A stretch of 64,000 bases of DNA from Escherichia coli. GTDB taxonomy: Bacteria; Pseudomonadota; Gammaproteobacteria; Enterobacterales; Enterobacteriaceae. Position 1 is the first letter of the stretch. Every line of letters begins with the position of its first letter. The stretch is from NCBI RefSeq assembly GCF_013315695.1, contig NZ_CP054354.1. One strand, given 5' to 3'. This document shows, in pieces, positions 10,165 through 26,453 of the stretch. The notes beneath the pieces are model-generated. The model was not told where the DNA came from, did not search any database, and saw only the letters and a list, made by a program, of their open reading frames with translations. A program made the translations under genes and the position numbers.

Positions 10165-11091
10165 ATGCCAAACTGGTGCTCGAATCGTATGTATTTTTCT
10201 GGTGAACCGGCACAGATCGCTGAGATTAAACGACTGGCCAGCGGTGCAGTCACACCGCTTTATCGCCGCGCTACAAATGAAGGTATTCAGCTGTTTCTGG
10301 CCGGAAGTGCCGGACTTCTGCAGATCACTGAAAATATCCGCTCTGAGCAGTGCCCCGGAGTGACGGCTGCCGGACGTGGTGCTGTATCACCGGAAAATAT
10401 CGCGTTCACCCGCTGGCTGACACACCTGCAGAACGGTGTACTGCTGGATGAGCAAAACTGCCTGATGCTGCATGAACTCTGGCTGCAGAGCGGTACTGGA
10501 CAGCGTCGCTGGGAAGAGTTACCGGATGATGTCAGGGAAACTATCACTGTGCATTTCACCGCAAAAAGAGGTGACTGGTGTGACATCTGGGGTAACGAGG
10601 ATGTATCGGTGTGGTGGAACCGTCTGTGTGACAACGTACTGCCGGAAAAAACCATGCCGTTTGACCTGCTGACGGTTTTGCCGACCCGCCTGGATATTGA
10701 AGTGAATGGCTTTAACGGCGGTGTTCTGAACGGTGTTCCTTCTGCATATCACTGGTATACAGAACGGTATGGCGTGAAGTGGCCTTGTGGGTATGACCTG
10801 AATATCAGCAGTCAGGGGGAAAACTTCATTCAGGTAGATTTCGACACGCCGTGGTGTCAGCCGGAAAGCGACGTTGTTGCAGAATTAAGCCGCCGTTTCG
10901 GCTGCACGCTGGAGCACTGGTACGCCGAACAGGGCTGCAATTTCTGTGGCTGGCAGTTGTATGAGCGCGGAGAGCTCGTTGATGTGCTGTGGGGGGAACT
11001 GGAATGGTCTTCCCCGACAGATGATGATGAGCTGCCGGAAGTCACCGGACCTGCGTGGATAATCGACAATGTGGCGCATTATGGCGGATGA
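10165..11091 (+). CDS. Conserved hypothetical leading-region protein (~308 aa)
   Basis: ATG at 10165 follows GAGGAG (10152-10157); ORF track start 10120 has no RBS; Trp/Cys-rich. Confidence 0.6.
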   Translation: MPNWCSNRMYFSGEPAQIAEIKRLASGAVTPLYRRATNEGIQLFLAGSAGLLQITENIRSEQCPGVTAAGRGAVSPENIAFTRWLTHLQNGVLLDEQNCLMLHELWLQSGTGQRRWEELPDDVRETITVHFTAKRGDWCDIWGNEDVSVWWNRLCDNVLPEKTMPFDLLTVLPTRLDIEVNGFNGGVLNGVPSAYHWYTERYGVKWPCGYDLNISSQGENFIQVDFDTPWCQPESDVVAELSRRFGCTLEHWYAEQGCNFCGWQLYERGELVDVLWGELEWSSPTDDDELPEVTGPAWIIDNVAHYGG

Positions 11092-11103
11092 AGTATGACG
11101 GAG

Positions 11104-11130
11104 ACGGGCGGGCAACCGCCCGTTTCTTTT
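11104..11130 (+). terminator. Putative rho-independent terminator
   Basis: Stem acgggcgg / ccgcccgt with loop gcaa, followed by ttcttttcc. Confidence 0.4.
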
Positions 11131-11475
11131 CCGACAAAGGATGTCGCCGTGCTCCTCTTTTTACTGCGCCGGCTGACGCGGCGCGGCATAAACGCTGCCT
11201 GTGGTCAGTGTCCCGCGTCCGGCCGGGCACGGGACGGGCGCTTTTACCGCTCCCGGCTGGCGTCGGTGACAGTGTACGCCAGCCCGTCGCCCTTTTCTGA
11301 TGAACGCCCTTCAAGCCGCTTTCGCGGCATAGCCTTGCCGTCAGAAAGACGACGGCTGCGGTATTCCACGGTCGGCCTGACCCGTTACCGGACGCGGTGA
11401 ACAGCCCACAGGCAGCGGGGAACGGGCACCACAGGGGTGCCCTCCCGGTGCCCTCTGTAAGAGAAGGAGTTTGGT

Positions 11476-12159
11476 ATGTCCCGTTTTGTCCTCGGTAACT
11501 GCATCGATGTTATGGCCCGTATCCCTGATAACGCCATTGATTTCATCCTCACCGACCCGCCGTACCTCGTCGGTTTTCGTGACCGTCAGGGGCGTACCAT
11601 TGCCGGCGATAAAACCGATGAATGGCTGCAACCGGCCTGTAATGAGATGTACCGCGTACTCAAAAAAGACGCGTTAATGGTGAGCTTCTATGGCTGGAAT
11701 CGCGTCGATCGTTTTATGTCTGCCTGGAAAAATGCGGGATTCAGCGTTGTTGGTCACCTGGTCTTCACCAAAAACTACACATCGAAGGCCGCATATGTGG
11801 GCTATCGCCACGAATGTGCCTACATCCTGGCAAAAGGCCGTCCACGTCTGCCACAAAACCCGCTGCCGGACGTGCTGGGCTGGAAATATTCGGGCAATCG
11901 CCATCACCCGACGGAAAAGCCCGTTACCAGCCTGCAACCACTGATTGAGAGCTTCACACATCCGAACGCGATTGTGCTGGACCCGTTTGCAGGCAGCGGA
12001 TCAACCTGCGTGGCCGCTCTTCAGTCCGGACGCCGGTATATCGGTATCGAGCTGCTTGAACAGTATCACCGTGCCGGACAGCAACGACTGACCGCCGTGC
12101 AACGGGCCATGCAGCAGGGGGCCGCGAATGATAACTGGTTTGAACCGGAGGCTGCGTAA
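11476..12159 (+). CDS. Orphan DNA N6-adenine methyltransferase
   Basis: 227 aa with DPPY motif (ILTDPPYLVG) and AdoMet-binding FAGSGST; AAGGAG RBS; no adjacent restriction gene. Confidence 0.9.
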   Translation: MSRFVLGNCIDVMARIPDNAIDFILTDPPYLVGFRDRQGRTIAGDKTDEWLQPACNEMYRVLKKDALMVSFYGWNRVDRFMSAWKNAGFSVVGHLVFTKNYTSKAAYVGYRHECAYILAKGRPRLPQNPLPDVLGWKYSGNRHHPTEKPVTSLQPLIESFTHPNAIVLDPFAGSGSTCVAALQSGRRYIGIELLEQYHRAGQQRLTAVQRAMQQGAANDNWFEPEAA

Positions 12160-12381
12160 ATGAACTATGCCGGACACGAAAAACTTCGCGCCGACGTGGC
12201 GGAGGTGGCCAACACCATGTGTGACCTTCGGGCCAGGCTGAACGATATGGAGCATCGCTGTCGCTTTGATTCCGATGTGCTTGTTGAACGCCTGACACGC
12301 CAGACGCTGTATCGCGCCAATCGCCTGTTCATGGAAGCGTATACCGAAATTCTGGAACTGGATTCCTGCTTCAAAGATTGA
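12160..12381 (+). CDS. Hypothetical leading-region protein (73 aa)
   Basis: ATG immediately after the methylase stop (taaATG). Confidence 0.5.
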   Translation: MNYAGHEKLRADVAEVANTMCDLRARLNDMEHRCRFDSDVLVERLTRQTLYRANRLFMEAYTEILELDSCFKD

Positions 12382-12394
12382 GAAGGAGACGAGA

Positions 12395-12829
12395 ATGTAC
12401 GGAACATGCGAAACGCTCTGCCGGGCGCTGGCAGCAAAGTATCCGGGAGATACGCCGCTGATGCTGGTTATCTGGTCCCCGGAAGAAATTCAGGCCCTCG
12501 CTGACGGAATGGATATTTCCCTGTCCGATCATGAAATCAGGACTGTCCTGGCGCGCCTGGAGGACATCCCGGAAGACCAGCGGACTGAATCCGGTATTTC
12601 TTCCGGTGCGGCGATGGAGATCATCAATAACGTGAGAGAAAACCGCCAGGTGACCGTCCCTGCTGAACTGCTGGCGTCCCTGATTCAGACCGCCGAACAG
12701 GCACTGTGGAAACGTGAGTGGGCCGCCCGTGATAACGGCCTCGCCGTCCCGGAATGCGTCACCCGCCGACAGGCGGTGGTTAATCAGGCCCGCGCCCTGC
12801 TGAAAAACAACACACGCGAAAACGACTGA
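12395..12829 (+). CDS. Hypothetical leading-region protein (144 aa); paralogue of 14532-14954
   Basis: RBS gaaggagacgaga-ATG; shares N-terminal MY.T..E and central HVTVPA segment with the 140-aa protein at 14532. Confidence 0.6.
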   Translation: MYGTCETLCRALAAKYPGDTPLMLVIWSPEEIQALADGMDISLSDHEIRTVLARLEDIPEDQRTESGISSGAAMEIINNVRENRQVTVPAELLASLIQTAEQALWKREWAARDNGLAVPECVTRRQAVVNQARALLKNNTREND

Positions 12830-12873
12830 TGTTATCGCCGCCTGCGGGCGGCGATTCAGGGAGACCATGAATC

Positions 12874-13644
12874 ATGAACGAAACGCTGAATGCACTGATT
12901 TGTCGCCACGCCCGTAACCTGCTGCTGGCGCAGGGCTGGCCGGAAGAGACGGATGTTGACCAGCGTAACCCGAAGTATCCGGGCTGGATCAGCATTTATG
13001 TTCTGCTGGATGCGCCCCGGCTGGCGACGTTACTTATCAACCGTCACGGCGGCGTACTGCCGCCGCTCCTGGCCTCTGCCATTCAGAAACTGACCGGAAC
13101 CGGGGCGGAACTTGTTCTGTCCGGCAGTCAGTGGCAGTCGCTGCCGGTACTTCCGGCAGACGGAACGCAGGTGTCTTTCCCGTATGCCGGAGAATGGCTG
13201 ACCGAAGACGAAATCAGGGCAGTTCTTGATGCGGTGCACGATGCGGTACGCAGTGTCAGTTGCCGGGTGGCAGAAGATGCGCGGCGTATCAGGGCGGCGC
13301 TGACCACAACCGGTCAGACGTTGCTGACCCGCCAGACGCGCCGCTTTCGCCTGGTTGTGAAGGAAAGCGATCACCCCTGCTGGCTCGATGAAGACGACGA
13401 AAACCTGCCCGTGGTGCTCGATGCCATCCTGAACCGGGGCGCTCGTTTTTCGTCGGTGGAAATGTATCTGGTCAGTGAGTGTGTGGAGCATATCCTGTCC
13501 AGTGGGCTGGCCTGCGATGTGCTGCGTATACCTGATGAACCGTCCCGTCGCTGGTTTGACCGGGATATTCTGCGGGAGGTGGTCCTGGAAGCCCGGACTG
13601 AAATCCGCAGCATGGCGGATGCACTGGCGAAAATCCGGAAATGA
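12874..13644 (+). CDS. Hypothetical leading-region protein (256 aa)
   Basis: Long ORF with backbone-like codon usage, no competing frame. Confidence 0.6.
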
Positions 13645-13700
13645 TGACGCTGGCGGGGAAAAATCTCCGCCTTTTCCAGCCGGTCCCCGGAAAGAGCAAA

Positions 13701-14040
13701 AGGATGTCGCCGCAGGCTCCGCTTTACCCGGCCATGCGGGGCATGGCCTTGTGGGTTTTCAGTTATGTGGCCTCAGCGCCGTGTGCGGGCTGTGCCGTGC
13801 CTCCATCGTAGCCGGGCTTCTGCGGGCGGGTTGCAAGGTAAGGTGAACCGCTGCGGTCACCCGGTCCCTCCTTCCCGTCTGCCGTGATTTTCCGGTCGTT
13901 CACCCGCTCAGATTTCGCGGTCTCACCCTTCAACTCCCGTCAGCCGTGCGCGTCAGGCTGCGGCTTCCCTTGCGCCCTTGCAACCCTGCAGGCCCGGCAA
14001 AGATGGAGGCACGGCACCGCCCGGTGTCGCGGAATATGTG
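13701..14040. repeat. GC-rich ~340-bp non-coding element, family A copy 1, immediately upstream of klcA
   Basis: Near-identical to 20650-20992; contains palindromes such as gccatgcggggcatggc; no supported ORF. Confidence 0.7.
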
Positions 14041-14059
14041 AACAACGGAGGAAAACATC

Positions 14060-14485
14060 ATGCAATATGCGAAACCTGTCACTCTGAACGTTGAAGAGTG
14101 CGACCGTCTGTCTTTTCTGCCTTACCTGTTTGGCCTGGATTTTCTGTATGCCGAAGCGTCTGTATACGCGCTGGCGAAAAAAATGATGCCGGAATATCAG
14201 GGAGGCTTCTGGCACTTCATCCGCCTGCCGGACGGTGGCGGTTACATGATGCCGGATGGCGACCGTTTCCACATGGTGAACGGTGCAAACTGGTTTGACC
14301 GTACCGTGAGTGCTGATGCCGCAGGCATCATCCTTACCTCCCTTGTGATTAACCGCCAGTTGTGGCTGTACCACGACAGCGGGGATGCAGGGTTGACACA
14401 CCTGTACAGGATGCGTGATGCGCAGTTGTGGAGCCACATCGAATTTCACCCCGAATGCAACGCGATTTACGCGGCACTTGACTGA
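14060..14485 (+). CDS. klcA: Antirestriction protein, KlcA/ArdB family
   Basis: 141 aa; FLPYLFG...[21 protein letters not shown]...SADAAGI matches the KlcA/ArdB pattern from memory; RBS aacggaggaaaa. Confidence 0.8.
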
Positions 14486-14531
14486 TTAACGGACGGGGCG
14501 GCAATGCCGCCCCTGTAAAGGAGACGAGAAC

Positions 14532-14954
14532 ATGTACTGTACTGTTAAAGAAATCATCCGCGATGTACTGGATACAGACGTGCCGGACAGTGAATGCGTT
14601 TTTGCCGTGGTGCTGACCCGTGGGGATGTGCGTCACATAGCCCAGGACTGGAACCTGTCAGACGATGAGCTGGAAACCGTCATGCAGCGACTGGACGATG
14701 CCTTTGAGCATGGTGCGGATGTCAGCGTTGTTCACGACGTTGTTCGTGAACTGATGGAAGAAAAGCGCGCCAGCCGTCATGTGACAGTCCCGGCGGTGAT
14801 GCTGGAAAAAGTGATGGCGCTGGCAGGCAGTGAAATGAAGCGCCTGTATGCCGTCGGGAGTGAGAACGGGGGCGACGGTGACGCATTCGTCAGGGAGGAA
14901 CGCGAAGCAATGGACGTTGTGTTACAGGCGCTGGACGGGGAGACGATGTCATGA
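14532..14954 (+). CDS. Hypothetical leading-region protein (140 aa); paralogue of 12395-12829
   Basis: RBS aaggagacgagaac-ATG nearly identical to that of 12395; acidic. Confidence 0.6.
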   Translation: MYCTVKEIIRDVLDTDVPDSECVFAVVLTRGDVRHIAQDWNLSDDELETVMQRLDDAFEHGADVSVVHDVVRELMEEKRASRHVTVPAVMLEKVMALAGSEMKRLYAVGSENGGDGDAFVREEREAMDVVLQALDGETMS

Positions 14955-15142
14955 ATATCAGCACAGAAACCCGCGAAATTCTGCGTAATTACAGGGCCGT
15001 GATTAATGCGCGGCGTCGTGAAATGGGGCAGAAACCGCTCACCACCGCGCAGATTGTTGATGAAATCTGCGATTTTGTGGCGAATCAGCAGGCGGTTTTC
15101 CTGGGCGGTCACTACATCCTTCAGGGCAGCAGAAACAGGTGA
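14951..15142 (+). CDS. Hypothetical small protein (63 aa)
   Basis: Start overlaps upstream stop (ATGTCATGA). Confidence 0.4.
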   Translation: MNISTETREILRNYRAVINARRREMGQKPLTTAQIVDEICDFVANQQAVFLGGHYILQGSRNR

Positions 15143-15342: not shown

Positions 15343-15905
15343 CCACTTCGGCTCCCGGCTGCCTGGCGGCATCCGGTCGTCAGGCCCGACTCCGACGGGC
15401 AGCTGCTGGCGCACCCGCCAGTCTCCGCCGAACCCGCTGGCGCGGTTTCGGGCTGCCGCTACGGTCCGATGCGTGAAAACCCGGGCTTGCAGCGACCGTT
15501 CCGGTCGCGCCGCCCCTGTCGCGCCGTGACCTGCGCTCCCTGCACACCTGACGGTGTGTGAGGAAACTGCGCCTGATGGCGCAGCAGTCCTCCCTCCTGC
15601 CGCCCCCCCTGCGGCCTGTTTCCCCGCTGTGGACTTTCCGGGGGGCAGACGTAACCCCCTCCCGTTCCATCTGTCCAGGGTGAGATGCACCGGCCACAAA
15701 ATTTTTAGCCATGAACCCGGCAAAAAATTTTGCGTCCGCCCCCGGACAGCTGCCCCGTGAGGCGGTAAACGGGCCCCCATCGGAAAGGTCCACTGCGGGG
15801 AGAAACCCCTGTGAAGTGGACGGCAGGAGGAGCTTTCGCTCCTCTGAAGGGGCACATGAACGTCCCGTCGCCGGTATCCGGTTTATCTCACATCTTTCAG
15901 TCAGG
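15343..15905. repeat. GC-rich ~560-bp non-coding element, family B copy 1 (Frpo/ssi-like), upstream of ssb
   Basis: Repeated at 21690-22240 and partially at 25230-25600; hairpins such as ctgcgcc-tgat-ggcgcag; ORFs here lie on both strands without RBS. Confidence 0.65.
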
Positions 15906-15913: not shown

Positions 15914-16441
15914 ATGAGTGCACGTGGTATCAACAAGGTCATCCTCGTCGGGCGTCTGGGCAATGATCCGGAAGTCCGTTACATCCCCAACGGGGGCGCA
16001 GTGGCAAACCTGCAGGTGGCCACATCAGAAAGCTGGCGTGACAAACAGACGGGGGAGATGCGGGAGCAGACGGAATGGCACCGCGTGGTGCTGTTCGGCA
16101 AGCTCGCGGAAGTGGCAGGTGAATATCTGCGCAAGGGTGCGCAGGTCTACATCGAAGGTCAGCTTCGCACCCGTAGCTGGGAAGATAACGGTATCACCCG
16201 TTACGTCACTGAAATTCTTGTTAAGACCACGGGCACCGTGCAGATGCTGGGACGTGCACCACAGCAGAACGCTCAGGCGCAACCGAAGCCTCAGCAGAAT
16301 GGGCAGCCACAGAGTGCTGACGCGACGAAAAAAGGTGGCGCGAAAACGAAAGGCCGTGGACGTAAGGCCGCGCAGCCAGAGCCTCAGCCGCAACCGCCGG
16401 AGGGGGAGGATTACGGGTTTTCAGACGACATCCCGTTCTGA
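15914..16441 (+). CDS. ssb: Plasmid single-stranded DNA-binding protein
   Basis: 175 aa; OB-fold N-terminus ([18 protein letters not shown]), Gln/Pro-rich linker, acidic tail ending DDIPF; AGGAGG RBS. Confidence 0.95.
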
Positions 16442-16498: not shown

Positions 16499-16732
16499 AT
16501 GAGCGAATATTTCAGAATACTTCAGGGACTGCCGGACGGCTCCTTTACCCGCGAACAGGCGGAAGCCGTTGCCGCACAGCACCGGAACGTCTTTATCGAG
16601 GATGATCAGGGAACGCATTTTCGCCTGGTTGTCCGTCAGGATGGCACGTTGATCTGGCGCTCCTGGAATTTTGAGGACTGTGCCGGGTACTGGATGAACC
16701 AGTACATCAGGGATTTCGGGATTCTTAAGTAA
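16499..16732 (+). CDS. Hypothetical leading-region protein (77 aa)
   Basis: ATG at 16499 is 8 nt after GGAG (16487-16490); ORF track start 16472 is GTG without RBS. Confidence 0.5.
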
Positions 16733-19238: not shown

Positions 19239-19954
19239 GCGCACGTTCACGGGCACTGATCCCCCTCAGCGCAGAACAACAGGCCGCCATGCAGGCGGTG
19301 GCTGTCACAGAACAACGTCGTCGTCAGGGACGCACACTTTCAGCATGGCCTTATGCCACCGCTTTCTTTCGCTGCCTGAATGGCAGTCGCCGGATTTCGC
19401 TGACCGATCTCCGCTTTTTTGCCCCTGCGCTGACGAAGGAGGAATTTCATGGCAACCGTCTCCTGTGGCTGGCTGCCGTGGATAAACTGATTGAAAGTTT
19501 TGGGGAAGTCTGTGTTCTTCCCCTGCCATCCGATGCGGGGCACCGTCTGTTCCCGTCCGTGCCTTTTCGTGAAGGTGAGCGTCGTCGTCAGAAAACCACG
19601 CTGACAGAGCAGAAATACAGCCGCCAGCGGGAACGTGAGGCAGAACGACGGGAACTGGAATACCAGACATGTTTTGCTCAGGCGCAGATTGACCTTGCGT
19701 TTCATACTCCCGCCACGGTCGGAAGCTGGTTGTCCCGCTGGTCTGGTGTTGTTGAGGAGCATGATCTGGAAACGATTTTCTGGGGGTGGTGCGGGCGTTT
19801 TCCATCACTGTCATCATTTGACCGGTTTTTCTGGCAGGAGGAACCACTCTGGCGGCTGATTTTTGAAGCCGGTGAGGCCGGTCGTGGTGCACCGGTACAG
19901 GTACGTGCACTTGAGCAGTGGATGATCCCGAACAAGCTGGAGAACGTAATATGA
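19235..19954 (+). CDS. psiA: PsiA
   Basis: 239 aa directly downstream of and overlapping psiB (ATGA), the conserved psiB-psiA arrangement. Confidence 0.85.
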
Positions 19955-20547
19955 TGAAATCAGACGAAAAATACCAGGTTCCCGCGTGGATGCGACCTCT
20001 GTTGCCGTTGCTCTGCAACACCGGGGGGAACGATCCGGAAGAACTGCTGAATGATACAGAAACCACTGCCAGTGCGAATGTTGTCCGTTATGTACTGATA
20101 GTTGCTGTGCGGTCGCAGGTTGATCTGCTGCAGCTTCTGTACAGGAAAGGGCTGTTGCGCACAGAGATACCAGGTGGCTTTTCACCGGAAGAAGCGCAGG
20201 CACTCCTGGATAATCTGGTGCGCAGCCATATCAGCAAGGCGCTGTCGGGCGAGCGAATGGCAGCCCGTGACAGAAATGCCGATCTGGCCTGGATTGGACA
20301 GCAACTGGTCGATGCCGCCTGGTTTGTCCGTGCCACACTGGAAGCGCATGGGATGAGCGTCGGAAATGAGAGTCCCCCTGCTCCGCCGGAGACAATGCCG
20401 GACATACAGACACGGGAACTGGTGATGTTGATCAAGCGACTGGCATCATCGCTGAAAGCGGTGAAACCGGACAGTTGTGTGGTGCGTGAAGCGCAGGACT
20501 GGCTGCGCGACAGAAAACTTGTGGATATCACAGATATTCTCCGGTGA
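19951..20547 (+). CDS. Hypothetical leading-region protein (198 aa)
   Basis: ATG overlaps psiA stop (ATATGA); ORF track start 19918 lies inside psiA. Confidence 0.55.
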   Translation: MMKSDEKYQVPAWMRPLLPLLCNTGGNDPEELLNDTETTASANVVRYVLIVAVRSQVDLLQLLYRKGLLRTEIPGGFSPEEAQALLDNLVRSHISKALSGERMAARDRNADLAWIGQQLVDAAWFVRATLEAHGMSVGNESPPAPPETMPDIQTRELVMLIKRLASSLKAVKPDSCVVREAQDWLRDRKLVDITDILR

Positions 20548-20649: not shown

Positions 20650-20992
20650 AGGACGTCGCCGCCGGCTCCGCTTTTACCCGGCCATGCGGGGCATGGCCTT
20701 GTGGGTTTTCAGTTATGTGGCCGCCGTGTCGTGTGCGGGCTGTGCCGTGCCTCCATCGTAGCCGGGCTTCTGCGGGCGGGATGCAAGGTAAGATGAACCG
20801 CTGCGGTCACCCGGTCCCTCCTTCCCGTCTGCCGTGATTTTCCGGTCGTTCACCCGCTCAGATTTCGCGGTCTCACCCTCCAACTCCCGCCAGCCGTGTG
20901 CGTCAGGCTGCGGCTTCCCTTGCGCCCTTGCATCCCTGCAGGCCCGGCAAAGATGGAGGCACGGCACCGCCCGGTGTCGCAGAACATGTGAC
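20650..20992. repeat. GC-rich ~340-bp non-coding element, family A copy 2, immediately upstream of ardA
   Basis: Near-identical to 13701-14040 over ~330 bp. Confidence 0.7.
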
Positions 20993-21008
20993 TATGGAGG
21001 ATTCGGGA

Positions 21009-21509
21009 ATGTCTGTTGTTGCACCTGCTGTATACGTTGGAACCTGGCACAAATACAACTGTGGAAGCATCGCTGGCCGCTGGTTTGACCTGACAACGTT
21101 TGATGATGAACGCGACTTTTTCGCCGCCTGCCGTGCCCTTCACCAGGATGAAACCGACCCGGAACTGATGTTTCAGGATTATGAGGGATTCCCGGGGAAT
21201 ATGGCCTCTGAATGCCATATCAACTGGGCCTGGGTTGAAGGCTTCCGCCAGGCGCGGGATGAAGGCTGCGAAGAGGCTTATCGTCTCTGGGTGGATGATA
21301 CCGGTGAGACGGATTTTGACAGCTTCCGCGATGCCTGGTGGGGCGAGGCTGACAGTGAGGAGGCTTTTGCGGTTGAGTTCGTCAGTGATACCGGCCTGCT
21401 GGCTGACGTGCCGGAGACGGTGGCGCTCTATTTTGACTATGAGGCGTATGCGCGGGATTTATTCCTGGACTCCTTCACCTTTATTGACGGTCATGTGTTC
21501 CGTCGGTGA
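21009..21509 (+). CDS. ardA: Antirestriction protein ArdA
   Basis: 166 aa from ATG at 21009 (GGAGG RBS 20996-21000); MSVVAPAVYVGTWHKYNCGSIAGRWFDLTTFDDE and very acidic C-terminal half typical of ArdA DNA mimics. Confidence 0.85.
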   Translation: MSVVAPAVYVGTWHKYNCGSIAGRWFDLTTFDDERDFFAACRALHQDETDPELMFQDYEGFPGNMASECHINWAWVEGFRQARDEGCEEAYRLWVDDTGETDFDSFRDAWWGEADSEEAFAVEFVSDTGLLADVPETVALYFDYEAYARDLFLDSFTFIDGHVFRR

Positions 21510-21689
21510 TTTACTCCCCGCTCCGGCGGGGGGATGGCCTGCCAGGCCCCCGGAAAACCCTGGCAGGCTTACGCCTGCCTGAAATACAGGAGGGCCGCGC
21601 CTGCGGCGCTACCCTTCCTGCCTGTCATAGTGTGAGGCATTTTTCTGTTTTGTCGTTTCTGTTGTTCTGACTCCCGGGGGCGGGGACAC

Positions 21690-22240
21690 CCTTCGGCTCC
21701 CGGCTGCCTGGCGGCATCCGGTCGTCAGGCCCGACTCCGACAGGCAGCTGCTGGCGCACCCGCCAGTCTCCGCCGAACCCGCTGGCGCGGTTTCGGGCTG
21801 CCGCTACGGTCCGATGTCTGAAAAACCAGGCTTGCAGCGACCGTTCCGGTCGCGCCGCCTCTGTCGCGCCGTGACCTGCGCTCCCTGCACACCTGACGGT
21901 GTGTAAGGAAACTGCGCCTGATGGCGCAGTTGTCTGCCCTTCCGCCGCCCCCCCTGCGGCCTGTTTCCCCGCTGTGGACTTTCCGGGGGCTGAAGCGGCC
22001 ACAACACGTTTCAGCCGTCCAGGGGAGAGATGTACCAGCCACAAAACTTTTTGCCGCAAGCGTCAAAAACTTTTGCGTCTGCCCCCGGACAACTGCCCCG
22101 TGCCGTGGCAGTCGCTGCCCCATCGGAAAGGTCCACTGCGGGGAGAAACCCCGAAGAAGTGGACGGCAGAAGGGGCTTTCGCCCCTCCGGGGGAGCAACC
22201 GGTCGGCCCGGCGACCTGATTCAGCAGAAGGAGACGTTTT
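21690..22240. repeat. GC-rich non-coding element, family B copy 2 (Frpo/ssi-like)
   Basis: Aligns with 15343-15905 along most of its length; ends at the RBS of the 22242 gene. Confidence 0.65.
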
Positions 22241-22241
22241 C

Positions 22242-22676
22242 ATGACAGTCAGCAGCACGATTTCCGTTTTTTGCCGCGACGGGGTGTTCCGTACCGTTTA
22301 CTGCCACCTGCACGGTGAGCCGACCTGGAACGGTCGCATCCTGCATACCCACTATGCCACCGGTCAGCAGGCCGAAGCCCTGGTTGAACACGGTGATATC
22401 CGTTGCCTCGGTCCCCGTTGCGACAAACCCGCCGGGCATACGCTTCAGAACCCGGTGGACGGTGTGACGGCTTATTACGGACGTGACAGTGGTTTCCGGA
22501 TGGACAGTGAGGCGCGTGAGTACCGTTCTTTCAGGGAGGCCATCGCCACGGAAAGCACTGAAGAGGTGCGCTTCCATTATGTGTTCATCGACGGCTACTG
22601 GAAGGTGATGTACCGCACGCCGGAAGGCTGGAAGATGAAAGCGCTCGCGCTGGCACTGCGTCGCTGTCCGGAATGA
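22242..22676 (+). CDS. Hypothetical leading-region protein (144 aa)
   Basis: AAGGAG RBS then ATG at 22242; followed by hairpin terminator gcagggcgataaaccctgc (22682-22700). Confidence 0.55.
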   Translation: MTVSSTISVFCRDGVFRTVYCHLHGEPTWNGRILHTHYATGQQAEALVEHGDIRCLGPRCDKPAGHTLQNPVDGVTAYYGRDSGFRMDSEAREYRSFREAIATESTEEVRFHYVFIDGYWKVMYRTPEGWKMKALALALRRCPE

Positions 22677-22768
22677 AAAAAAGCAGGGCGATAAACCCTG
22701 CCTTTCTCCGCTGGCGCTTCCCCGTACGGAAGTCCGGCATCTCATTCACTAACTATGGAGATTATGCC

Positions 22769-23035
22769 ATGAGACCATCAATTATCTTCGCAACCGCCGA
22801 GTATGTAAAGCGTCTGCGAGAAGAGTGCCTGCGGGAGAACAAACCCCTGCACCGCCATACCCGCTTCAGACGCCAGGAACTGGCACCGGATGAGATTAAC
22901 CCGGACGTCCTGGCGATGGGCGGTCATATCGCCAGACGCTGCAGTGAGCAGAAGCGGGTACGTATCCCCGCCATGAAAGTCAGCGAATGGGGCCACCTGC
23001 TCCGCGCGCTTGAAATTGAACGGGTCTGTCACTGA
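22769..23035 (+). CDS. Hypothetical basic protein (88 aa)
   Basis: ATG at 22769 after ctatggagattatgcc; Arg/His-rich. Confidence 0.45.
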   Translation: MRPSIIFATAEYVKRLREECLRENKPLHRHTRFRRQELAPDEINPDVLAMGGHIARRCSEQKRVRIPAMKVSEWGHLLRALEIERVCH

Positions 23036-23211
23036 TTAACCCCTGCCGTCTGCCTGTGCAGGTGGCAGGATGTGTTCAGGTACTTTACCAGGAGGAACCG
23101 TGAGCAAGATGAAAAACATCACGACGTCTGTGTTGCATGGTGTCTCCACAAAAAACAGAAAAGGGAAACAGATTCTCTTTCATTCAGGGCCCGGGAGGGC
23201 TGGAGATAACA

Positions 23212-23601
23212 ATGAAGTCTTGTTTTGATACTGACAAAGCTTTTCATATGTCTTTTGATGAAGTCACTTTCAACGCTGACAGAATTCGCTCAAAACTGGA
23301 ACTATTATCCGAAGAACTAATGCCCCGTTGTGGTCTTGTTTATGAGCTATATCAGCGACGTTTGAGTGCTGCTATTGATAATTTTGTGGCCACATTGCCG
23401 ACAGAACAACATCTACTGGTCCTGGAACTGGCCCGTGAGGAGTTTGATTACCTTTCCGCAGAAGAGATTGCTGAAGAAATACGCCGTGACTCAGAACGCG
23501 GCTATTGTTGTCATGGCTTTGAACGCAATTGCTGTCCTCTCGGTTGTGGGGATTTGGGCGATGATTGCTGCGATGCTGCTGATTTGATGGAGGAACCGTG
23601 A
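23212..23601 (+). CDS. Hypothetical acidic protein with Cys-rich C-terminus (129 aa)
   Basis: GGAG RBS 23202-23205; C-terminal CCHGFERNCCPLGCGDLGDDCCD. Confidence 0.5.
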   Translation: MKSCFDTDKAFHMSFDEVTFNADRIRSKLELLSEELMPRCGLVYELYQRRLSAAIDNFVATLPTEQHLLVLELAREEFDYLSAEEIAEEIRRDSERGYCCHGFERNCCPLGCGDLGDDCCDAADLMEEP

Positions 23602-24512
23602 GTAAGAAGAAAAACACCACAACGCCCACGCCGCATGATGCCGCGTTCCGGTCGTTCCTGGCGAATCCCGACGTCGCCAGAGATTTTCTGGAACTGCATC
23701 TTCCTGCGGAGTACCGGCAGTTGTGCGACCTGTCCACGCTGAAGCTGGAACCCGCCACCTTTGTAGAGCCGGACCTGCATCAGTACGCCAGCGATATCCT
23801 CTGGAGCGTGAAAACCACCGGGGGTGAAGACGGCTATGTTTATACGCTCATCGAGCACCAGAGCACAGAAAATCTGTACATGCCTTTTCGCATGTTACGC
23901 TACAGTGTGGCGGCGATGCAGAGACATCTGGAGCAGCACAAAACGTTGCCACTGGTGATTCCGGTGCTGTTCTATCACGGTGAGCGCAGCCCGTACCCGT
24001 ACAGCATGAACTGGCTGGACTGTTTTGAGAATCCGGCACTTGCGGCTAAAATATACACAAAACCGTTTCCGCTGGTTGATATCACTGTCGTTGATGACAA
24101 TGAAATCATGAATCATCGCCGGATGGCCGCACTGACGCTGCTGATGAAGCATATCCGCCATCGTGACATGATGGAGCTGCTGGACAAACTCCCGCAGGTC
24201 ATGGTGGAAATTTCAGACGAGCAGGTGCGTGTTCTGATTCATTACATCGTTAACGCAGGGGACTCTGTATCACCGGAATTTATGCGGGCGCTGGCTGAGC
24301 GTCTGCCGCAGCATGAGGATAAACTGATGACTATCGCAGAACGTCTTGAGCAAAAAGGTCGCCAGGAAGGCAGGATGGAAGGACGCATGGAAGGAGCGCT
24401 TGAAAAAGCCCTGGCTATTGCGTGCCAGCTTCAGAAAATGGGGATGACGCCGGAGCAGATTAAGCAGGCTACCGGACTTTCCGATGACGAACTGAAGAAA
24501 ATCACTCACTGA
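23598..24512 (+). CDS. Rpn (YhgA-like) recombination-promoting nuclease, PD-(D/E)xK family
   Basis: 304 aa, GTG start after GGAGG; N-terminal PHDAAFRSFLANPDVARDFLELHLP and C-terminal QEGRMEGRMEG...MGMTPEQIKQATGLSDDELKK are characteristic of Rpn proteins as recalled. Confidence 0.8.
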   Translation: MSKKKNTTTPTPHDAAFRSFLANPDVARDFLELHLPAEYRQLCDLSTLKLEPATFVEPDLHQYASDILWSVKTTGGEDGYVYTLIEHQSTENLYMPFRMLRYSVAAMQRHLEQHKTLPLVIPVLFYHGERSPYPYSMNWLDCFENPALAAKIYTKPFPLVDITVVDDNEIMNHRRMAALTLLMKHIRHRDMMELLDKLPQVMVEISDEQVRVLIHYIVNAGDSVSPEFMRALAERLPQHEDKLMTIAERLEQKGRQEGRMEGRMEGALEKALAIACQLQKMGMTPEQIKQATGLSDDELKKITH

Positions 24513-24519
24513 TGAGAAC

Positions 24520-24552
24520 CGCAAAGCCCGGCAAAATCCCGGGCTTTTTTGC
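24520..24552 (+). terminator. Rho-independent terminator after rpn
   Basis: aaagcccggcaaaatcccgggctttttt: GC stem plus T-run. Confidence 0.6.
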
Positions 24553-24574
24553 CTGCAGGAGCAGAGCAAACAGC

Positions 24575-24745
24575 ATGACGATTGCAGAACGTCTTATACA
24601 GAAAGGTTTTGAAAAAGGTGCTCTTGAAGTGGCGCGGGAAATAGCCTGCCGGCTGCGGGATATGGGCTGGACGCCGGAACGGATTCAGGAGGCGACCGGA
24701 CTTTCCGGTGAAGAACTGAAAAAGCTGTTTCCTGATGAGCAGTAG
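24575..24745 (+). CDS. Free-standing Rpn C-terminal-domain paralogue (RpnS-like small protein, 56 aa)
   Basis: MTIAERLIQKGFEKGALEVAREIACRLRDMGWTPERIQEATGLSGEELKK parallels the rpn C-terminus MTIAERLEQKG...; begins after the rpn terminator; weak RBS. Confidence 0.45.
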   Translation: MTIAERLIQKGFEKGALEVAREIACRLRDMGWTPERIQEATGLSGEELKKLFPDEQ

Positions 24746-24775
24746 CCTGGCATTCTGCCAGGCTGTGAATCACGC

Positions 24776-25027
24776 TCACACATCCTCTGCCGTTTCCCCC
24801 AGTTCATTTTCCAGTCGCCTGATGATATCTGCCTTACGCATCCCCTGCATGTGAGGCAGCAGGTCACGGACTGAAAGTGCCTGGGTGGTCCTCCAGACGG
24901 TGACATCCACCTGCTCCGCATTTTCCCAGGCGTGCCATGTTCTCTGTGTCACGCCAAATTCTCTGGCCGCTTTTTCGCGTGACCAGAGCATGCTTTTTCG
25001 CCAGATTCGCAGTTCCCAGCCGGTCAT
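24776..25027 (-). CDS. Small Xre-like helix-turn-helix regulator (83 aa)
   Basis: REKAAREFGVTQRTWHAWE resembles an Xre-type HTH; divergent from the leading-region genes; operator-like repeats upstream. Confidence 0.5.
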   Translation of the reverse strand: MTGWELRIWRKSMLWSREKAAREFGVTQRTWHAWENAEQVDVTVWRTTQALSVRDLLPHMQGMRKADIIRRLENELGETAEDV

Positions 25028-25039
25028 AAAATACCTTTT

Positions 25040-25140
25040 AAAAAGTGAAAAAACTTCACTTTATTTTATCACCATAATCACCAAATCAGCGCGAAAAATA
25101 AATGTGAAAAAGTGAAGAAATTTCACTTTTTTTAGTTGTA
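25040..25140. promoter_or_regulatory. Inverted-repeat operator candidates (GTGAA-N-TTCAC) upstream of the Xre-like gene
   Basis: aaagtgaaaaaacttcacttt and gtgaaaaagtgaagaaatttcac in an AT-rich stretch. Confidence 0.4.
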
Positions 25141-25229
25141 GATGTCGTGCTGTTTTCTCTGTTTTCACCTGTGCGGGAGTGGGTGTCAGTGACCACCACA
25201 TGCCATTGTTGTGCCGTCGTTTTTCTTCA

Positions 25230-25600
25230 GTCGCGCCGGATGCAGCGCTCCCTGCACACCTTACGGTGTGTAAGGCCACTGCGCCTGATGGCGCAGCTGT
25301 CTCTGCCTGTCTGCCGCCGCACTGCGGCCTGTTCTCCGCAGACGGACTTTCCGGGGAACATACACGACCACATCCCGTTTCAGTTATCCAGGGGAGAGAT
25401 GTACCAGCCACAAAACTTTTTGCCGCAGGCGTCAAAAACTTTTGCGTCTGCCCCCGGACAACTGCCCCGTGACGTGGTGAGCATCCCCCGTCGGAAAGGT
25501 CCACTGCGGGGAAATCCCCGAAGACCCGGACGGCAGAAGGAGCTTCGCTCCTCCGGGAAATGACCTGGCTGACCCGGCAGTCGTGACGATGAGGAGACAA
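25230..25600. repeat. GC-rich non-coding element, family B copy 3 (partial, 3' ~370 bp)
   Basis: Aligns with the 3' part of 15343-15905 and 21690-22240; ends at the RBS of the 25605 gene. Confidence 0.6.
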
Positions 25601-25604
25601 TGTG

Positions 25605-26453
25605 ATGAATCAGACTTTACCCACTGCTGACCTGAATACTGCCGGCACGACAGATGTTATTCCGTCTGTAGCTATCGACCGCATCATCGCGCAGCGTAAC
25701 GAAGGTATTGCACTGTTCATGCAGGCGATGGAATGCCTGGCGACAGCGCGCAAGATTCTGCTCGATGCGTCAGGTGATATTTTTCTTTACGGGTTTGAAG
25801 ACTGCGTGACTGATTCCGTTCGTCGCATGGATAAGACGGAAGAAGCGAAAAGGAATATCACCCGTCTTGCCGACCGGAAAATCTGGGACCGCCTGATGAC
25901 AGATACGGGCATGTACACCTTCATGAGTTCATGCCAGCGTGATGAGTGGAACAGCCAGCTGATGAGCGACACCTGTCCTGAAATCACCCTGGACAATGTA
26001 CTGGCAACATTCCGCCATCTTAATGCCAGCAAGATGCAGACGTTTGAACAGGGGCTGATTGATGTCTACCGGAAATTGTCATGGGATTACAGAACCAATA
26101 ATCCCTGCCGTCTGGGTAAGAAAATCATTATTGAAAACCTACTGTACCGCTGGAGTAACGGGCGTGTGACGCTGGACTGCAGCGGACGGGAGGCACTGGA
26201 TGACCTGGTACGTCCGTTTTATCTGCTGGAGGGGCGCAACGTTCCTGACTTCAGGAACAGCATCGGGGCGCAGTATGGTGAATTTCTCGGGAACGGTGAC
26301 AATGTCGGTAAGCTGTTAGAAGGGGAATATTTTACGGTGCGTGGCTACCAGAAAGGGACCGTACACATTGTCTTTAAGCGTTCTGACCTTGTTGAAAAAC
26401 TGAATGATATTATTGCACGGCATTATCCTGGTGCATTGCCGCCACGAGTCTGA
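25605..26453 (+). CDS. Hypothetical leading-region protein (283 aa)
   Basis: GAGGAG RBS 25591-25596 then ATG at 25605; terminator-like hairpin at 26464-26496. Confidence 0.6.
   Translation: MNQTLPTADLNTAGTTDVIPSVAIDRIIAQRNEGIALFMQAMECLATARKILLDASGDIFLYGFEDCVTDSVRRMDKTEEAKRNITRLADRKIWDRLMTDTGMYTFMSSCQRDEWNSQLMSDTCPEITLDNVLATFRHLNASKMQTFEQGLIDVYRKLSWDYRTNNPCRLGKKIIIENLLYRWSNGRVTLDCSGREALDDLVRPFYLLEGRNVPDFRNSIGAQYGEFLGNGDNVGKLLEGEYFTVRGYQKGTVHIVFKRSDLVEKLNDIIARHYPGALPPRV

What the first reader, a model, noticed from the sequence alone, without database searches (positions are those of the whole stretch)
10165..26453. Leading region is a dense anti-defence island with about a dozen unassigned ORFs
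From oriT leftward the first DNA to enter a recipient carries ardA, klcA, psiB-psiA, ssb, an orphan adenine methylase and a ParB-like protein, all on the strand that would be transcribed from the entering single strand. Interleaved are unassigned ORFs at 10165-11091, 12160-12381, 12395-12829, 12874-13644, 14532-14954, 14951-15142, 16499-16732, 19951-20547, 22242-22676, 22769-23035, 23212-23601 and 25605-26453. Leading regions are known to concentrate anti-restriction, anti-SOS and anti-CRISPR functions, so these are candidate uncharacterised anti-defence genes.
Basis: partly seen in the sequence, partly recalled or inferred. Interest (0 to 1): 0.65.

Follow-up and report, generated by a model that had tools for sequence, protein, structure and literature searches.

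The report
Known IncI plasmid leading-region island
This is the well-studied first-to-enter segment of an IncI-type resistance plasmid (99.7% identical to plasmid R16): the twelve unassigned genes are real and conserved, but the idea that they help the plasmid evade host defences is already published and partly tested.

Summary
The window at 10-27 kb is the leading region of an I-complex conjugative plasmid. It is 99.7% identical to R16, gene-for-gene colinear with pESBL, and shared with F from DUF1281 to psiA.

All twelve ORFs match RefSeq CDSs, have a Shine-Dalgarno sequence plus ATG, and are under purifying selection wherever the compared plasmids differ. A MOBP nick motif on the minus strand shows that this strand enters first. 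21 of 23 genes are readable from it.

Six structured intergenic elements head six gene blocks, and eleven of the twelve ORFs lie in those blocks. The elements correspond to the three classes of single-strand promoter mapped in pESBL.

The proposed tests have largely been done in near-identical plasmids: early RNA-seq, Tn-seq and TraDIS.

"Anti-defence" is too broad for the whole island. The ParB-like gene is a HerB homologue, a host reprogrammer. Rpn/orf77 is a toxin-antitoxin phage-defence module. DUF1281 lies outside the promoter-headed blocks.

New here:
- orf144 (YgcA, inferred to be the toxic "810") founds a large Pfam-less family with a confident predicted fold that has no PDB match.
- orf129 is a CcgAII-like cassette.
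- "PndC" is a misnomer for orf144.

The parts
7817..9941 (-). impCAB (DinI-like ImpC, UmuD-like ImpA, Y-family polymerase ImpB). This is the distal boundary of the island, on the strand that cannot be read from the entering DNA.
   Evidence: ORFs; R16 annotation; DinI Pfam. Samuel 2024 describes umuCD-like operons as the island boundary.
10165..11091 (+). DUF1281 + DUF1281_C (Api92-like) gene; pESBL Hp8. It lies outside the six promoter-headed blocks.
   Evidence: Pfam 1.6e-46 and 1.3e-14. PDB 2IJR Api92, 3e-47, function unknown. dN/dS 0.19-0.30. Upstream spacer fold z=-2.2, like the control.
11151..11469 (-). Class-3-type single-strand promoter hairpin on the transferred strand, upstream of the methylase. 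The RefSeq 'hypothetical protein' at 11095-11400 inside it is spurious.
   Evidence: ssDNA fold z=-7.1. 96% identical to the F region upstream of its methylase. The class is defined in pESBL. dN/dS of the annotated ORF is 1.1-3.7.
11476..12159 (+). M.EcoGIX-type single-strand-specific adenine methylase.
   Evidence: NF010253, 500 bits. 93% aa identity to pESBL M.EcoGIX. Function from PMC7736820.
12160..12381 (+). orf73 (pESBL Hp9; inferred pMS7163B '950'); no domain.
   Evidence: SD+ATG; dN/dS 0.13 against pESBL at dS about 1.0. phrog_4830, unknown function.
12395..12829 (+). DUF1380 paralogue a (Hp10; inferred '940').
   Evidence: Pfam DUF1380. 27% identical to paralogue b. Cis overexpression of 930/940 was costly in pMS7163B.
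12874..13644 (+). orf256 (Hp11, 'YchA'); no domain. Found in at least 5000 PLSDB plasmids.
   Evidence: dN/dS 0.16-0.18. tblastn against plasmids. No PDB match.
13723..14023 (-). Class-2-type single-strand promoter element, copy a, upstream of klcA. Its 5' end carries a terminator-like hairpin on the plus strand (13735-13753).
   Evidence: 300-nt repeat, 97% identical to copy b. Fold z=-4.2. 88% identical to F ssp2 region. Terminator scan.
14060..14485 (+). KlcA/ArdB anti-restriction gene.
   Evidence: PF03230, 2e-26. PHROG anti-restriction family. 94% identical to the F gene downstream of the class-2 promoter, which Fraikin et al. call yfgB.
14532..14954 (+). DUF1380 paralogue b (Hp12; inferred '910'); strongly acidic. 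Best single candidate for an anti-restriction accessory.
   Evidence: Pfam. pI 4.39, net charge -12 per 100 aa, against -15 for ArdA. The 910::Cm phenotype matches ardB::Cm. It lies in the operon whose promoter deletion cripples F transfer into foreign hosts.
14951..15142 (+). orf63 (Hp13), translationally coupled to DUF1380b.
   Evidence: 4-nt overlap with the upstream gene. dN/dS 0.09-0.11. 98% identical in F.
15346..15870 (-). Class-1 (ssi/Frpo-type) single-strand promoter element, copy a, upstream of ssb.
   Evidence: Repeat families D2-D5. Fold z=-8.3. Matches both class-1 (ssi/Frpo-type) repeat loci of F, one upstream of ssb and one near oriT.
15914..16441 (+). Plasmid SSB.
   Evidence: NF010292, 386 bits.
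16499..16732 (+). DUF905 gene (Hp14; inferred ydcB in pMS7163B; occupies the slot between ssb and the ParB-like gene in F, so probably YfjA).
   Evidence: Pfam 4.9e-34. PDB 2HJJ YkfF, 3e-21, function unknown. 79% identical to the F homologue.
16791..18749 (+). ParB-like protein, homologue of F YfjB/HerB.
   Evidence: ParB_N + HTH_ParB. 90.6% identical to F. HerB function from PMC13370423.
18804..19954 (+). psiB-psiA SOS-inhibition pair.
   Evidence: NF010255 and NF010258, both above cutoff.
19951..20547 (+). orf198 (Hp15, 'YgaA'), coupled to psiA. Absent from F.
   Evidence: 4-nt overlap with psiA. Found in about 2200 plasmids. Weak C-terminal PHROG matches. No PDB match.
20673..20973 (-). Class-2-type single-strand promoter element, copy b, upstream of ardA.
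   Evidence: Repeat D1. Fold z=-4.5.
21009..21509 (+). ArdA anti-restriction DNA mimic.
   Evidence: PF07275, 6e-30.
21691..22213 (-). Class-1 single-strand promoter element, copy b, upstream of orf144.
   Evidence: Repeats D2-D6. Fold z=-9.2.
22242..22676 (+). orf144 (Hp16, 'YgcA', inferred '810'). Member of a large Pfam-less family with a predicted fold that has no PDB match. Mis-named PndC in databases.
22769..23035 (+). orf88 (Hp17), basic, no domain.
   Evidence: pI 9.9. At least 5000 plasmids, including 40-47% identical relatives.
23212..23601 (+). orf129 (Hp18): acidic, Cys-rich, CcgAII-like. An accessory cassette flanked by a 52-nt duplication of the rpn 5' end.
   Evidence: 57-77% identical to IncN CcgAII over residues 26-106. 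pI 4.38. Repeat D8 at 23091-23142 and 23589-23640. Absent from L012-L014.
23598..24512 (+). Rpn (YhgA-like) nuclease (Hp19) with an internal RpnS start at Met244 and 4-aa repeats.
   Evidence: PF04754, 2e-78. TIGR01784. Family biology from PMC10400941.
24512..24745 (+). orf77 (Hp20): free-standing RpnS-like copy ('RpnSs' type) with two fewer 4-aa repeats than the neighbouring RpnS.
   Evidence: 58% identity, Met22 aligned to Rpn Met244, 8-residue gap. DNA repeat D7.
24776..25027 (-). HTH regulator (Hp21) on the opposite strand, so not expressible from the entering strand.
   Evidence: HTH_31. R16 annotation.
25227..25503 (-). Class-1 single-strand promoter element, copy c, nearest oriT, upstream of DUF4942.
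   Evidence: Repeats D3, D5 and D6. Fold z=-7.3.
25605..26453 (+). DUF4942 gene (Hp22), the first plus-strand (T-strand-templated) gene to enter. It resembles the non-catalytic part of some phage methyltransferases.
   Evidence: Pfam 6.9e-51. phrog_6263 'DNA methyltransferase', positions 26-286 of 548. No PDB match.
26539..26880 (-). Small basic 'MobC'-annotated gene (Hp23) next to oriT, on the opposite strand.
27011..27062 (-). oriT core: inverted repeat plus the MOBP nick motif ACATCCTG|T on the transferred strand.
   Evidence: Sequence read. The motif identity rests on my knowledge of the IncP/IncI nick-region consensus.
27107..30171 (+). nikA-nikB relaxosome genes (the lagging side).
   Evidence: Only 66% and 72% identical to pESBL.

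Best explanation
The region is the leading (first-transferred) region of an IncI-complex conjugative plasmid, essentially that of R16 and pESBL. It is also shared with F from DUF1281 to psiA.

How it works:
1. The relaxase NikB nicks the minus strand at about 27016/27015. That strand enters the recipient 5'-first, so 26.9 kb down to 10 kb arrives first as single-stranded DNA.
2. Six long imperfect hairpins form in that strand. Three are class-1 ssi/Frpo-type, two are class-2 and one is class-3. They mimic duplex promoters and drive a burst of transcription toward oriT.
3. Complementary-strand synthesis then irons the hairpins out and silences them.

The six transcription units are:
- DUF4942
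- orf144-orf88-orf129-rpn-orf77
- ardA
- ssb-DUF905-herB-like-psiB-psiA-orf198
- klcA-DUF1380b-orf63
- methylase-orf73-DUF1380a-orf256

Eleven of the twelve unassigned ORFs are therefore passengers of this zygotically induced regulon. They are genuine, conserved genes. Collectively they are best read as establishment functions of mixed kind:
- Some are probably anti-restriction accessories. DUF1380b in the klcA operon is the strongest case.
- Some probably act on host physiology, as HerB does and as the toxic orf144 may.
- One block is a toxin-antitoxin defence module (Rpn/RpnS/orf77).

What is shown and what is inferred:
- Shown here: gene reality, colinearity, strand and nick orientation, the repeat families and their single-strand folding, and homology to the experimentally mapped promoters.
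- Taken from the literature on near-identical plasmids: induction and transcription start sites.
- Inferred: the individual ORF functions.
For: - Identity and colinearity: 99.7% identity to R16 over 17.5 kb, with matching annotation. Every ORF is 77-100% identical to its pESBL counterpart in the same order. DUF1281 to psiA are 64-98% identical to F.
- Orientation: the nick motif lies on the minus strand. 21 of 23 genes are on the plus strand.
- Repeats: two repeat families sit exactly upstream of klcA and ardA, and of ssb, orf144 and DUF4942.
- Folding: all six spacers fold as single-stranded DNA at z = -4.2 to -9.2. A coding control gives -2.6.
- Promoter homology: class-1 copies match both F class-1 (ssi/Frpo-type) loci, and the class-2 and class-3 elements are 88-96% identical to the F counterparts.
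- No conventional promoters: no sigma-70-like duplex promoter lies on the plus strand upstream of any block.
- Expression data from pESBL: RNA-seq and 5' RACE found six operons and three promoter classes, with up to about 500-fold induction at 15 min.
- Methylase: M.EcoGIX acts on the entering strand and protects against restriction.
- F plasmid: deleting ssp2 lowers transfer into non-isogenic hosts 21-fold to undetectable.
- pMS7163B: the 910 and 810 phenotypes.
- Gene reality: purifying selection and ribosome-binding sites for the ORFs.
Against: - No expression or phenotype data exist for this exact sequence.
- pESBL Tn-seq found all these ORFs dispensable for transfer between K-12 strains.
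- The mapping of pMS7163B numbers 810, 910, 940 and 950 to genes is inferred from gene order, not read from a table.
- The 910::Cm phenotype could be a cassette or polar effect, as the same study showed for 950, ssb and ydcB.
- I did not locate the -35 and -10 boxes in the hairpins. The consensus scan found none.
Confidence: 0.88

Rival explanations
1. All, or nearly all, of the twelve ORFs are dedicated anti-defence proteins, each neutralising a particular restriction, CRISPR or other immune system.
For: - They sit among ArdA, KlcA, PsiB and M.EcoGIX, behind single-strand promoters.
- Samuel 2024 finds leading regions enriched for anti-defence genes.
- DUF1380b and orf129 are almost as acidic as ArdA.
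- The 910 mutant behaves like the ardB mutant.
- A 43%-identical orf144 homologue lies beside two ArdC-like genes.
- Dispensability in K-12 to K-12 matings is what an anti-defence role predicts.
Against: - The best-characterised 'unknown' of this region, YfjB/HerB, turned out to reprogram host transcription and not to block immunity.
- Rpn/RpnS is itself a defence toxin-antitoxin system.
- orf144 ('810') is severely toxic.
- DUF1281 is not behind a structured promoter.
- No ORF matches any known anti-defence or defence family in PHROGs, NCBIfam, PADLOC or the PDB.
Confidence: 0.2
2. Most of the unassigned ORFs are neutral hitch-hiking cargo or mis-called reading frames in GC-rich DNA, with no role in establishment.
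For: - pESBL Tn-seq classes them as non-essential.
- The GC-rich repeats do generate many long spurious ORFs.
- At least one RefSeq CDS here (11095-11400) is spurious, with dN/dS of 1.1 or more.
Against: - All twelve have a ribosome-binding site plus ATG, and every ORF that can be tested has dN/dS of 0.08-0.39.
- Order and sequence are conserved across IncI, IncB/O/K/Z and IncF backbones, in 2,000 to more than 5,000 plasmids.
- Several are translationally coupled to known genes.
- pMS7163B homologues show strong negative selection.
Confidence: 0.04

Closest known systems
Leading region of IncI1-type plasmid pESBL-EA11 (NC_018659) and of R16/R64/ColIb-P9
   Same: The gene order is identical from impCAB to nikA. 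Amino-acid identity is 77-100% for every ORF. The same six structured spacers are present, falling into the three promoter classes, and the M.EcoGIX methylase is the same.
   Different: nikA and nikB are only 66% and 72% identical to pESBL, so this plasmid has the R16/I-gamma/B-O-type relaxase. orf73 and orf77 are the most diverged ORFs, at 77% identity.
F plasmid leading region (ssp/Frpo promoters; YfjA, YfjB/HerB, YfgB)
   Same: DUF1281, methylase, orf73, DUF1380a, orf256, klcA, DUF1380b, orf63, ssb, DUF905, the ParB-like gene, psiB and psiA are shared at 64-98% identity. Class-1, class-2 and class-3 promoter homologues are also shared.
   Different: Beyond psiA, F carries hok/flm and a different oriT-proximal set. 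It lacks orf198, ardA, orf144, orf88, orf129, rpn and DUF4942.
Plasmid 'anti-defence islands' of Samuel et al. 2024
   Same: The island is bounded by oriT and a umuCD-like operon in the opposite orientation. Genes lie on the T strand. Frpo-type promoters, MTase, SSB, anti-restriction and anti-SOS genes are all present.
   Different: No recognisable anti-CRISPR was found. The island contains an Rpn toxin-antitoxin defence module.
IncN (pKM101/R46) CUP-controlled regulon gene ccgAII
   Same: orf129 is 57-77% identical to CcgAII over residues 26-106, and both lie in leading regions beside ardA.
   Different: The IncN genes are controlled by ArdK and CUP repeats, not by ssi-type hairpins. The function of CcgAII is also unknown.
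Rpn (YhgA-like) RpnL/RpnS toxin-antitoxin phage-defence systems
   Same: The PF04754 nuclease domain is present, along with an internal Met start for a C-terminal small protein, 4-aa repeats, and a second small copy encoded downstream, as for rpnE-ypaA.
   Different: This one is carried in a leading region behind a single-strand promoter. The downstream copy has two fewer repeats than its neighbour, and its activity is untested.

Membership tests
Plasmid leading-region anti-defence island (Samuel 2024) | Lies next to oriT on the side that enters the recipient first. | tested here: met
   The MOBP-type nick motif ACATCCTG|T follows an inverted repeat on the minus strand at 27062-27015, upstream of nikAB.
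Plasmid leading-region anti-defence island (Samuel 2024) | Contains known anti-restriction, anti-SOS, MTase and SSB genes. | tested here: met
   ArdA and KlcA/ArdB by Pfam. PsiB, PsiA, SSB and MTase are above NCBIfam cutoffs.
Plasmid leading-region anti-defence island (Samuel 2024) | Genes are oriented for transcription from the transferred strand. | tested here: met
   21 of 23 genes are on the plus strand, and the transferred strand is the minus strand.
Plasmid leading-region anti-defence island (Samuel 2024) | Frpo/ssi-type single-strand promoters lie upstream of the gene blocks. | tested here: met
   Sequence homology to both F class-1 (ssi/Frpo-type) loci. Three class-1 copies fold at z = -7.3 to -9.2. 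Promoter activity itself was not testable.
Plasmid leading-region anti-defence island (Samuel 2024) | The distal boundary is formed by a umuCD-like operon in the opposite orientation. | tested here: met
   impCAB at 7817-9941 on the minus strand.
IncI-complex leading region (pESBL/R16 type) | Colinear gene order and high identity to reference plasmids. | tested here: met
   99.7% identical to R16. All ORFs match pESBL in the same order.
Anti-defence protein (each of the 12 ORFs) | Protects incoming DNA against a defined defence system. | not testable with these tools
   Only indirect evidence is available: the 910 (inferred DUF1380b) mutant phenotype in pMS7163B and the F ssp2 operon deletion.
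DNA-mimic anti-restriction proteins (ArdA/Ocr-like) | Highly acidic surface that imitates the DNA backbone in a defined fold. | tested here: inconclusive
   DUF1380b and orf129 have a net charge of -12 per 100 aa, against -15 for ArdA. The DUF1380b model failed at pLDDT 46. orf129 was not modelled.
Hok/Sok-type 'PndC' (database name of orf144) | Belongs to a pnd/hok locus with a sok-type antisense RNA and an overlapping toxin frame. | tested here: not met
   The only sok match in the window is at 39596-39752, with none near 22 kb. orf144 is a 144-aa globular protein of a large independent family.
HerB/YfjB ParB-like host reprogrammer | ParB N-terminal CTP-binding domain plus HTH, and full-length similarity to F YfjB. 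| tested here: met
   ParB_N + HTH_ParB. 90.6% identity over 652 aa to the F protein. Activity was not tested.
Rpn RpnL/RpnS toxin-antitoxin | YhgA-like nuclease domain, with an internally initiated C-terminal small protein carrying 4-aa repeats. | tested here: met
   PF04754. Met244 is followed by QEGR/MEGR/MEGA repeats and aligns to Met22 of orf77. Toxicity and defence activity were not tested.

The most novel reading that the evidence does not exclude
orf144 (YgcA, Hp16, '810') is the first gene behind the copy-b class-1 single-strand promoter (class 1 was the strongest class in pESBL). It may be the plasmid representative of a very large, structurally novel family of early-expressed mobile-element effectors. 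Members occur in plasmid leading regions, beside ArdC genes and in phage early-gene clusters. On this reading the protein acts on a host target, which explains its toxicity, to disarm immunity or take over the cell. The 51%-identical allele found in an otherwise 95-99% identical backbone would then reflect an arms race.

A second, smaller possibility concerns orf77. Its repeat number does not match that of its neighbouring RpnS, so it could be a decoy antitoxin aimed at Rpn nucleases of the recipient.
Probability: 0.2. Interest if true: 0.6.

Novelty: already known. Interest (0 to 1): 0.27.

Why it matters
These genes ride on thousands of resistance plasmids of Escherichia coli, Salmonella, Shigella and Klebsiella. 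Individual ORFs match about 1,200 to more than 5,000 PLSDB records. Most lie in the gene blocks that are switched on first when such a plasmid enters a new cell. Knowing what they do could reveal how plasmids cross strain barriers and how to block that.

The region as a whole, and the hypothesis about it, are already in the literature. The value left here lies in prioritising individual genes, not in a discovery. The genes to prioritise are DUF1380b, orf144/YgcA, orf129/CcgAII-like, DUF4942 and orf77.

Tried and rejected
- NCBIfam, PHROGs and PADLOC scans of the unassigned ORFs gave no functional family. There were only 'unknown function' PHROGs and chance-level PADLOC hits.
- PDB sequence searches returned only structural-genomics entries of unknown function: Api92 2IJR for DUF1281 and YkfF 2HJJ for DUF905. 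There was nothing for DUF1380b, orf144, orf256, orf198 or DUF4942.
- The AlphaFold model of DUF1380b from a shallow 24-sequence alignment failed (pLDDT 46), so no fold search was run on it.
- A Python script for fold z-scores timed out. It was replaced by strand-folding runs.
- The consensus promoter scan did not find the -35 and -10 boxes inside the hairpins, and I did not resolve them by eye.
- The supplementary expression table of Wen et al. is not held.
- The database name 'PndC' for orf144 was considered and rejected.
- The RefSeq ORF at 11095-11400 was considered as a thirteenth candidate and rejected as non-coding.

Full report
**What the region is.** Megablast of window 10000-27500 against PLSDB finds more than 5000 plasmids. 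The best is Escherichia coli plasmid R16 (IncI-gamma/K1 replicon type, MOBP relaxase, MPF_I), at 99.7% identity over the full 17.5 kb. The region runs from the impCAB operon (7817-9941, minus strand) to nikA-nikB (27107-30171, plus strand). It is also gene-for-gene colinear with pESBL-EA11. Amino-acid identity to pESBL is 77-100% for every leading-region ORF, but only 66% and 72% for NikA and NikB. From DUF1281 through psiA it is shared with the F plasmid at 64-98% identity.

**Check of the observation.**
- All twelve coordinate pairs are correct.
- Each ORF has a GGAG/AGGAG-type ribosome-binding site and an ATG.
- Pairwise dN/dS against pESBL, F or R16 is 0.08-0.39 wherever there is divergence to measure.
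- One extra RefSeq 'hypothetical protein' at 11095-11400 has dN/dS of 1.1-3.7 and lies inside a hairpin. It is not a gene.
- The named genes are confirmed. The M.EcoGIX-type methylase, SSB, PsiB, PsiA and the ParB domain score above curated NCBIfam cutoffs. ArdA (PF07275), KlcA/ArdB (PF03230), DinI and the YhgA-like nuclease are confirmed by Pfam.
- Five of the twelve 'unassigned' ORFs carry Pfam domains of unknown function: DUF1281+DUF1281_C, DUF1380 twice, DUF905 and DUF4942. Seven have none.

**Orientation.** On the minus strand just upstream of nikA there is an inverted repeat (27062-27026) followed by ACATCCTG|T (27022-27015). From my knowledge of IncP/IncI oriT nick regions, this is the MOBP nick motif on the transferred strand. 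The minus strand therefore enters 5'-first, and DNA at lower coordinates enters first. Plus-strand genes are templated by the entering strand and transcribed toward oriT. 21 of 23 genes between impC and nikA are on the plus strand (P about 3e-5). The two exceptions are an HTH gene (24776-25027) and a small 'MobC'-annotated gene (26539-26880). This agrees with the published polarity of pESBL.

**Regulatory anatomy.** Two families of long direct repeats occupy the large spacers:
- A 300-nt element, 97% identical between its two copies, lies upstream of klcA (13723-14022) and ardA (20673-20972).
- A roughly 250-520-nt element is present three times, upstream of ssb (15346-15870), orf144 (21691-22213) and DUF4942 (25227-25477).
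- A sixth, unique spacer precedes the methylase (11092-11475).

Folded as single-stranded DNA of the transferred strand, all six are far more stable than dinucleotide shuffles:

| Spacer upstream of | z-score |
|---|---|
| ssb | -8.3 |
| orf144 | -9.2 |
| DUF4942 | -7.3 |
| klcA | -4.2 |
| ardA | -4.5 |
| methylase | -7.1 |
| parB-like coding control | -2.6 |
| DUF1281 | -2.2 |

The triple repeat matches both class-1 (ssi/Frpo-type) repeat loci of F. The other two types are 88-96% identical to the F sequences upstream of its klcA and methylase homologues. No sigma-70-like duplex promoter lies on the plus strand upstream of any block.

This is exactly the architecture that Wen et al. 2025 mapped experimentally in pESBL. 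They found six operons induced up to about 500-fold 15 min after mating. Transcription starts were confirmed by 5' RACE and driven by class 1 (ssi1-3, Frpo-like), class 2 (klcA, ardA) and class 3 (M.EcoGIX) single-strand promoters. [quoted passage not shown] By position, eleven of the twelve ORFs sit in these six blocks. DUF1281 does not.

**What is already known about the 'unassigned' genes.** In pESBL nomenclature they are Hp8-Hp18 and Hp22. Tn-seq scored them all as dispensable for maintenance and for transfer between K-12 strains, with Hp16 (orf144) at 0.76/0.24.

In pMS7163B the gene order lets me assign the published numbers. This assignment is my inference:
- 950 = orf73
- 940 = DUF1380a
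- 920 = ardB
- 910 = DUF1380b
- 870 = ydcB (DUF905)
- 860 = parB_2
- 810 = orf144

That study reported the following:
- 910::Cm, like ardB::Cm, lowers transfer from an hsd-deleted donor into an EcoKI-positive recipient, but not from a modifying donor.
- Overexpression of 810 causes a severe growth defect.
- Cis-overexpression of 930/940 and of parB_2 is costly.

In F, three further results bear on these genes:
- Deleting the class-2 promoter of the klcA operon reduces transfer into natural E. coli isolates from 21-fold to undetectable. [quoted passage not shown]
- The ParB-like gene is 90.6% identical to F YfjB. That protein has been characterised as HerB, a CTP-binding ParB-like protein that binds the host chromosome and reprograms host transcription.
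- The methylase homologue M.EcoGIX methylates the entering single strand and blocks restriction.

The general claim, that leading regions are anti-defence islands bounded by oriT and umuCD-like genes and full of uncharacterised candidates, is the subject of Samuel et al. 2024.

**New details found here.**

(a) *orf144 (22242-22676).*
- It belongs to a very large family: 1979 representative clusters at E<=1e-3 and 258 at E<=1e-10. It has no Pfam model.
- The conserved motif is YCHxDGY...GHSF...YGRDRGE...W. The window protein departs from it at several near-invariant positions, for example D24 to H and R83 to S.
- AlphaFold with a 75-sequence alignment gives pLDDT 96 and pTM 0.90.
- A 43%-identical homologue lies in a co-directional cluster with two ArdC-like genes. 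A 38%-identical one lies among small genes of a 235-kb phage-like contig.
- Some sister I-complex plasmids carry a 51%-identical allele in the same slot, while ArdA, orf88 and Rpn are 98%, 95% and 99% identical. This allele is rare: almost all of the 2015 PLSDB matches are at least 95% identical.
- The database name 'PndC' is wrong. The only sok/pnd locus is at 39596-39752.

(b) *orf129 (23212-23601).*
- It is 57-77% identical to CcgAII of IncN leading regions.
- It is as acidic as DUF1380b: pI 4.4 and net charge -12 per 100 aa, against -15 for ArdA.
- It is absent from the sister plasmids.
- It is bracketed by a 52-nt duplication of the rpn ribosome-binding site and first codons. It therefore looks like a cassette inserted at the start of rpn.

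(c) *Rpn and orf77.* The Rpn gene has the internal Met244 and 4-aa repeats typical of RpnL/RpnS toxin-antitoxin phage-defence genes. orf77 is a downstream free-standing RpnS-like copy with two fewer repeats.

(d) *DUF4942.* This is the first plus-strand (T-strand-templated) gene to enter. It aligns to the non-catalytic half of a phage 'DNA methyltransferase' PHROG and has no obvious SAM or catalytic motif by eye.

**Interpretation.** The best-supported account is that this is the known zygotically induced establishment regulon of I-complex and F-like plasmids. The twelve ORFs are real and conserved, and most are co-transcribed with proven anti-defence genes. Their functions are likely to be mixed:
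- anti-restriction accessories (DUF1380b is the best candidate; orf129 and DUF4942 are plausible);
- host-directed effectors (HerB as precedent; the toxic orf144 as candidate);
- a defence or addiction module (Rpn/RpnS/orf77).

**Limits.**
- I could not see the pESBL per-gene expression table.
- The pMS7163B number-to-gene mapping is inferred.
- The DUF1380b model failed.
- The promoter hexamers inside the hairpins were not located.
- No function can be demonstrated computationally.

Noticed in passing
window 11095-11400 (+): A CDS annotated as 'hypothetical protein' in RefSeq records of R16, pESBL, F and pMS7163B lies entirely inside the class-3 single-strand promoter hairpin. Its dN/dS is 1.1-3.7, so it is almost certainly not a gene.
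   Followed up: yes
window 23091-23142 and 23589-23640; orf129 at 23212-23601: The ribosome-binding site and first ~14 codons of rpn are duplicated (79% identity) on either side of orf129. Sister plasmids (L012-L014) go straight from orf88 to rpn. orf129 therefore looks like a ~0.5-kb cassette inserted at the 5' end of a recombination-promoting nuclease gene.
   Followed up: partly
window 24512-24745 vs 24327-24512: orf77 is a free-standing copy of the Rpn C-terminal (RpnS) domain, 58% identical. Its Met22 aligns to Rpn Met244, and it has two fewer four-residue repeats. Published work says repeat number sets RpnS-RpnL specificity, so it may not neutralise its own neighbour.
   Followed up: partly
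window 22242-22676; L012 7001-7432: A 51%-identical allele of orf144 occupies the same slot in some I-complex plasmids whose flanking genes are 95-99% identical. The window allele has lost several family-invariant residues (HxDGY is HLHGE here).
   Followed up: partly
window 39596-39752 (+) and 36009-36096 (-): Rfam finds a sok antitoxin RNA (the real pnd/hok-type locus) and an AgrB-type antisense RNA on the transfer-gene side of oriT, outside the finding.
   Followed up: no
window 13735-13753 and 20685-20703 (+): Each class-2 repeat begins with an identical terminator-like hairpin plus T-run on the plus strand, just after the preceding gene block. The repeat may therefore combine a terminator for the upstream operon with the promoter for the next.
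   Followed up: no
window 27107-30171: NikA and NikB are only 66% and 72% identical to those of pESBL, although the adjacent leading region is 94-100% identical. This points to a mosaic junction at oriT between a shared leading region and a different relaxase lineage.
   Followed up: no
window 15334-15855 (-), 21725-22258 (-), 21921-22676 (+), 25061-25600 (-): The GC-rich ssi-type repeats create long spurious ORFs on both strands. The 251-aa N-terminally extended form of orf144, listed in UniProt as 'PndC', is one of them.
   Followed up: partly
window 24776-25027 (-) and 26539-26880 (-): Two genes inside the island, an HTH regulator and a small basic 'MobC'-annotated protein, are on the strand that cannot be transcribed until the complementary strand is made. 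The HTH gene sits just before the oriT-proximal promoter element and could be a late-acting regulator.
   Followed up: no
L005 (F plasmid) 4856-5341: The best tblastn segment for the DUF1281 protein in F covers only residues 1-162 of 308, which suggests that the F copy is interrupted or frameshifted.
   Followed up: no
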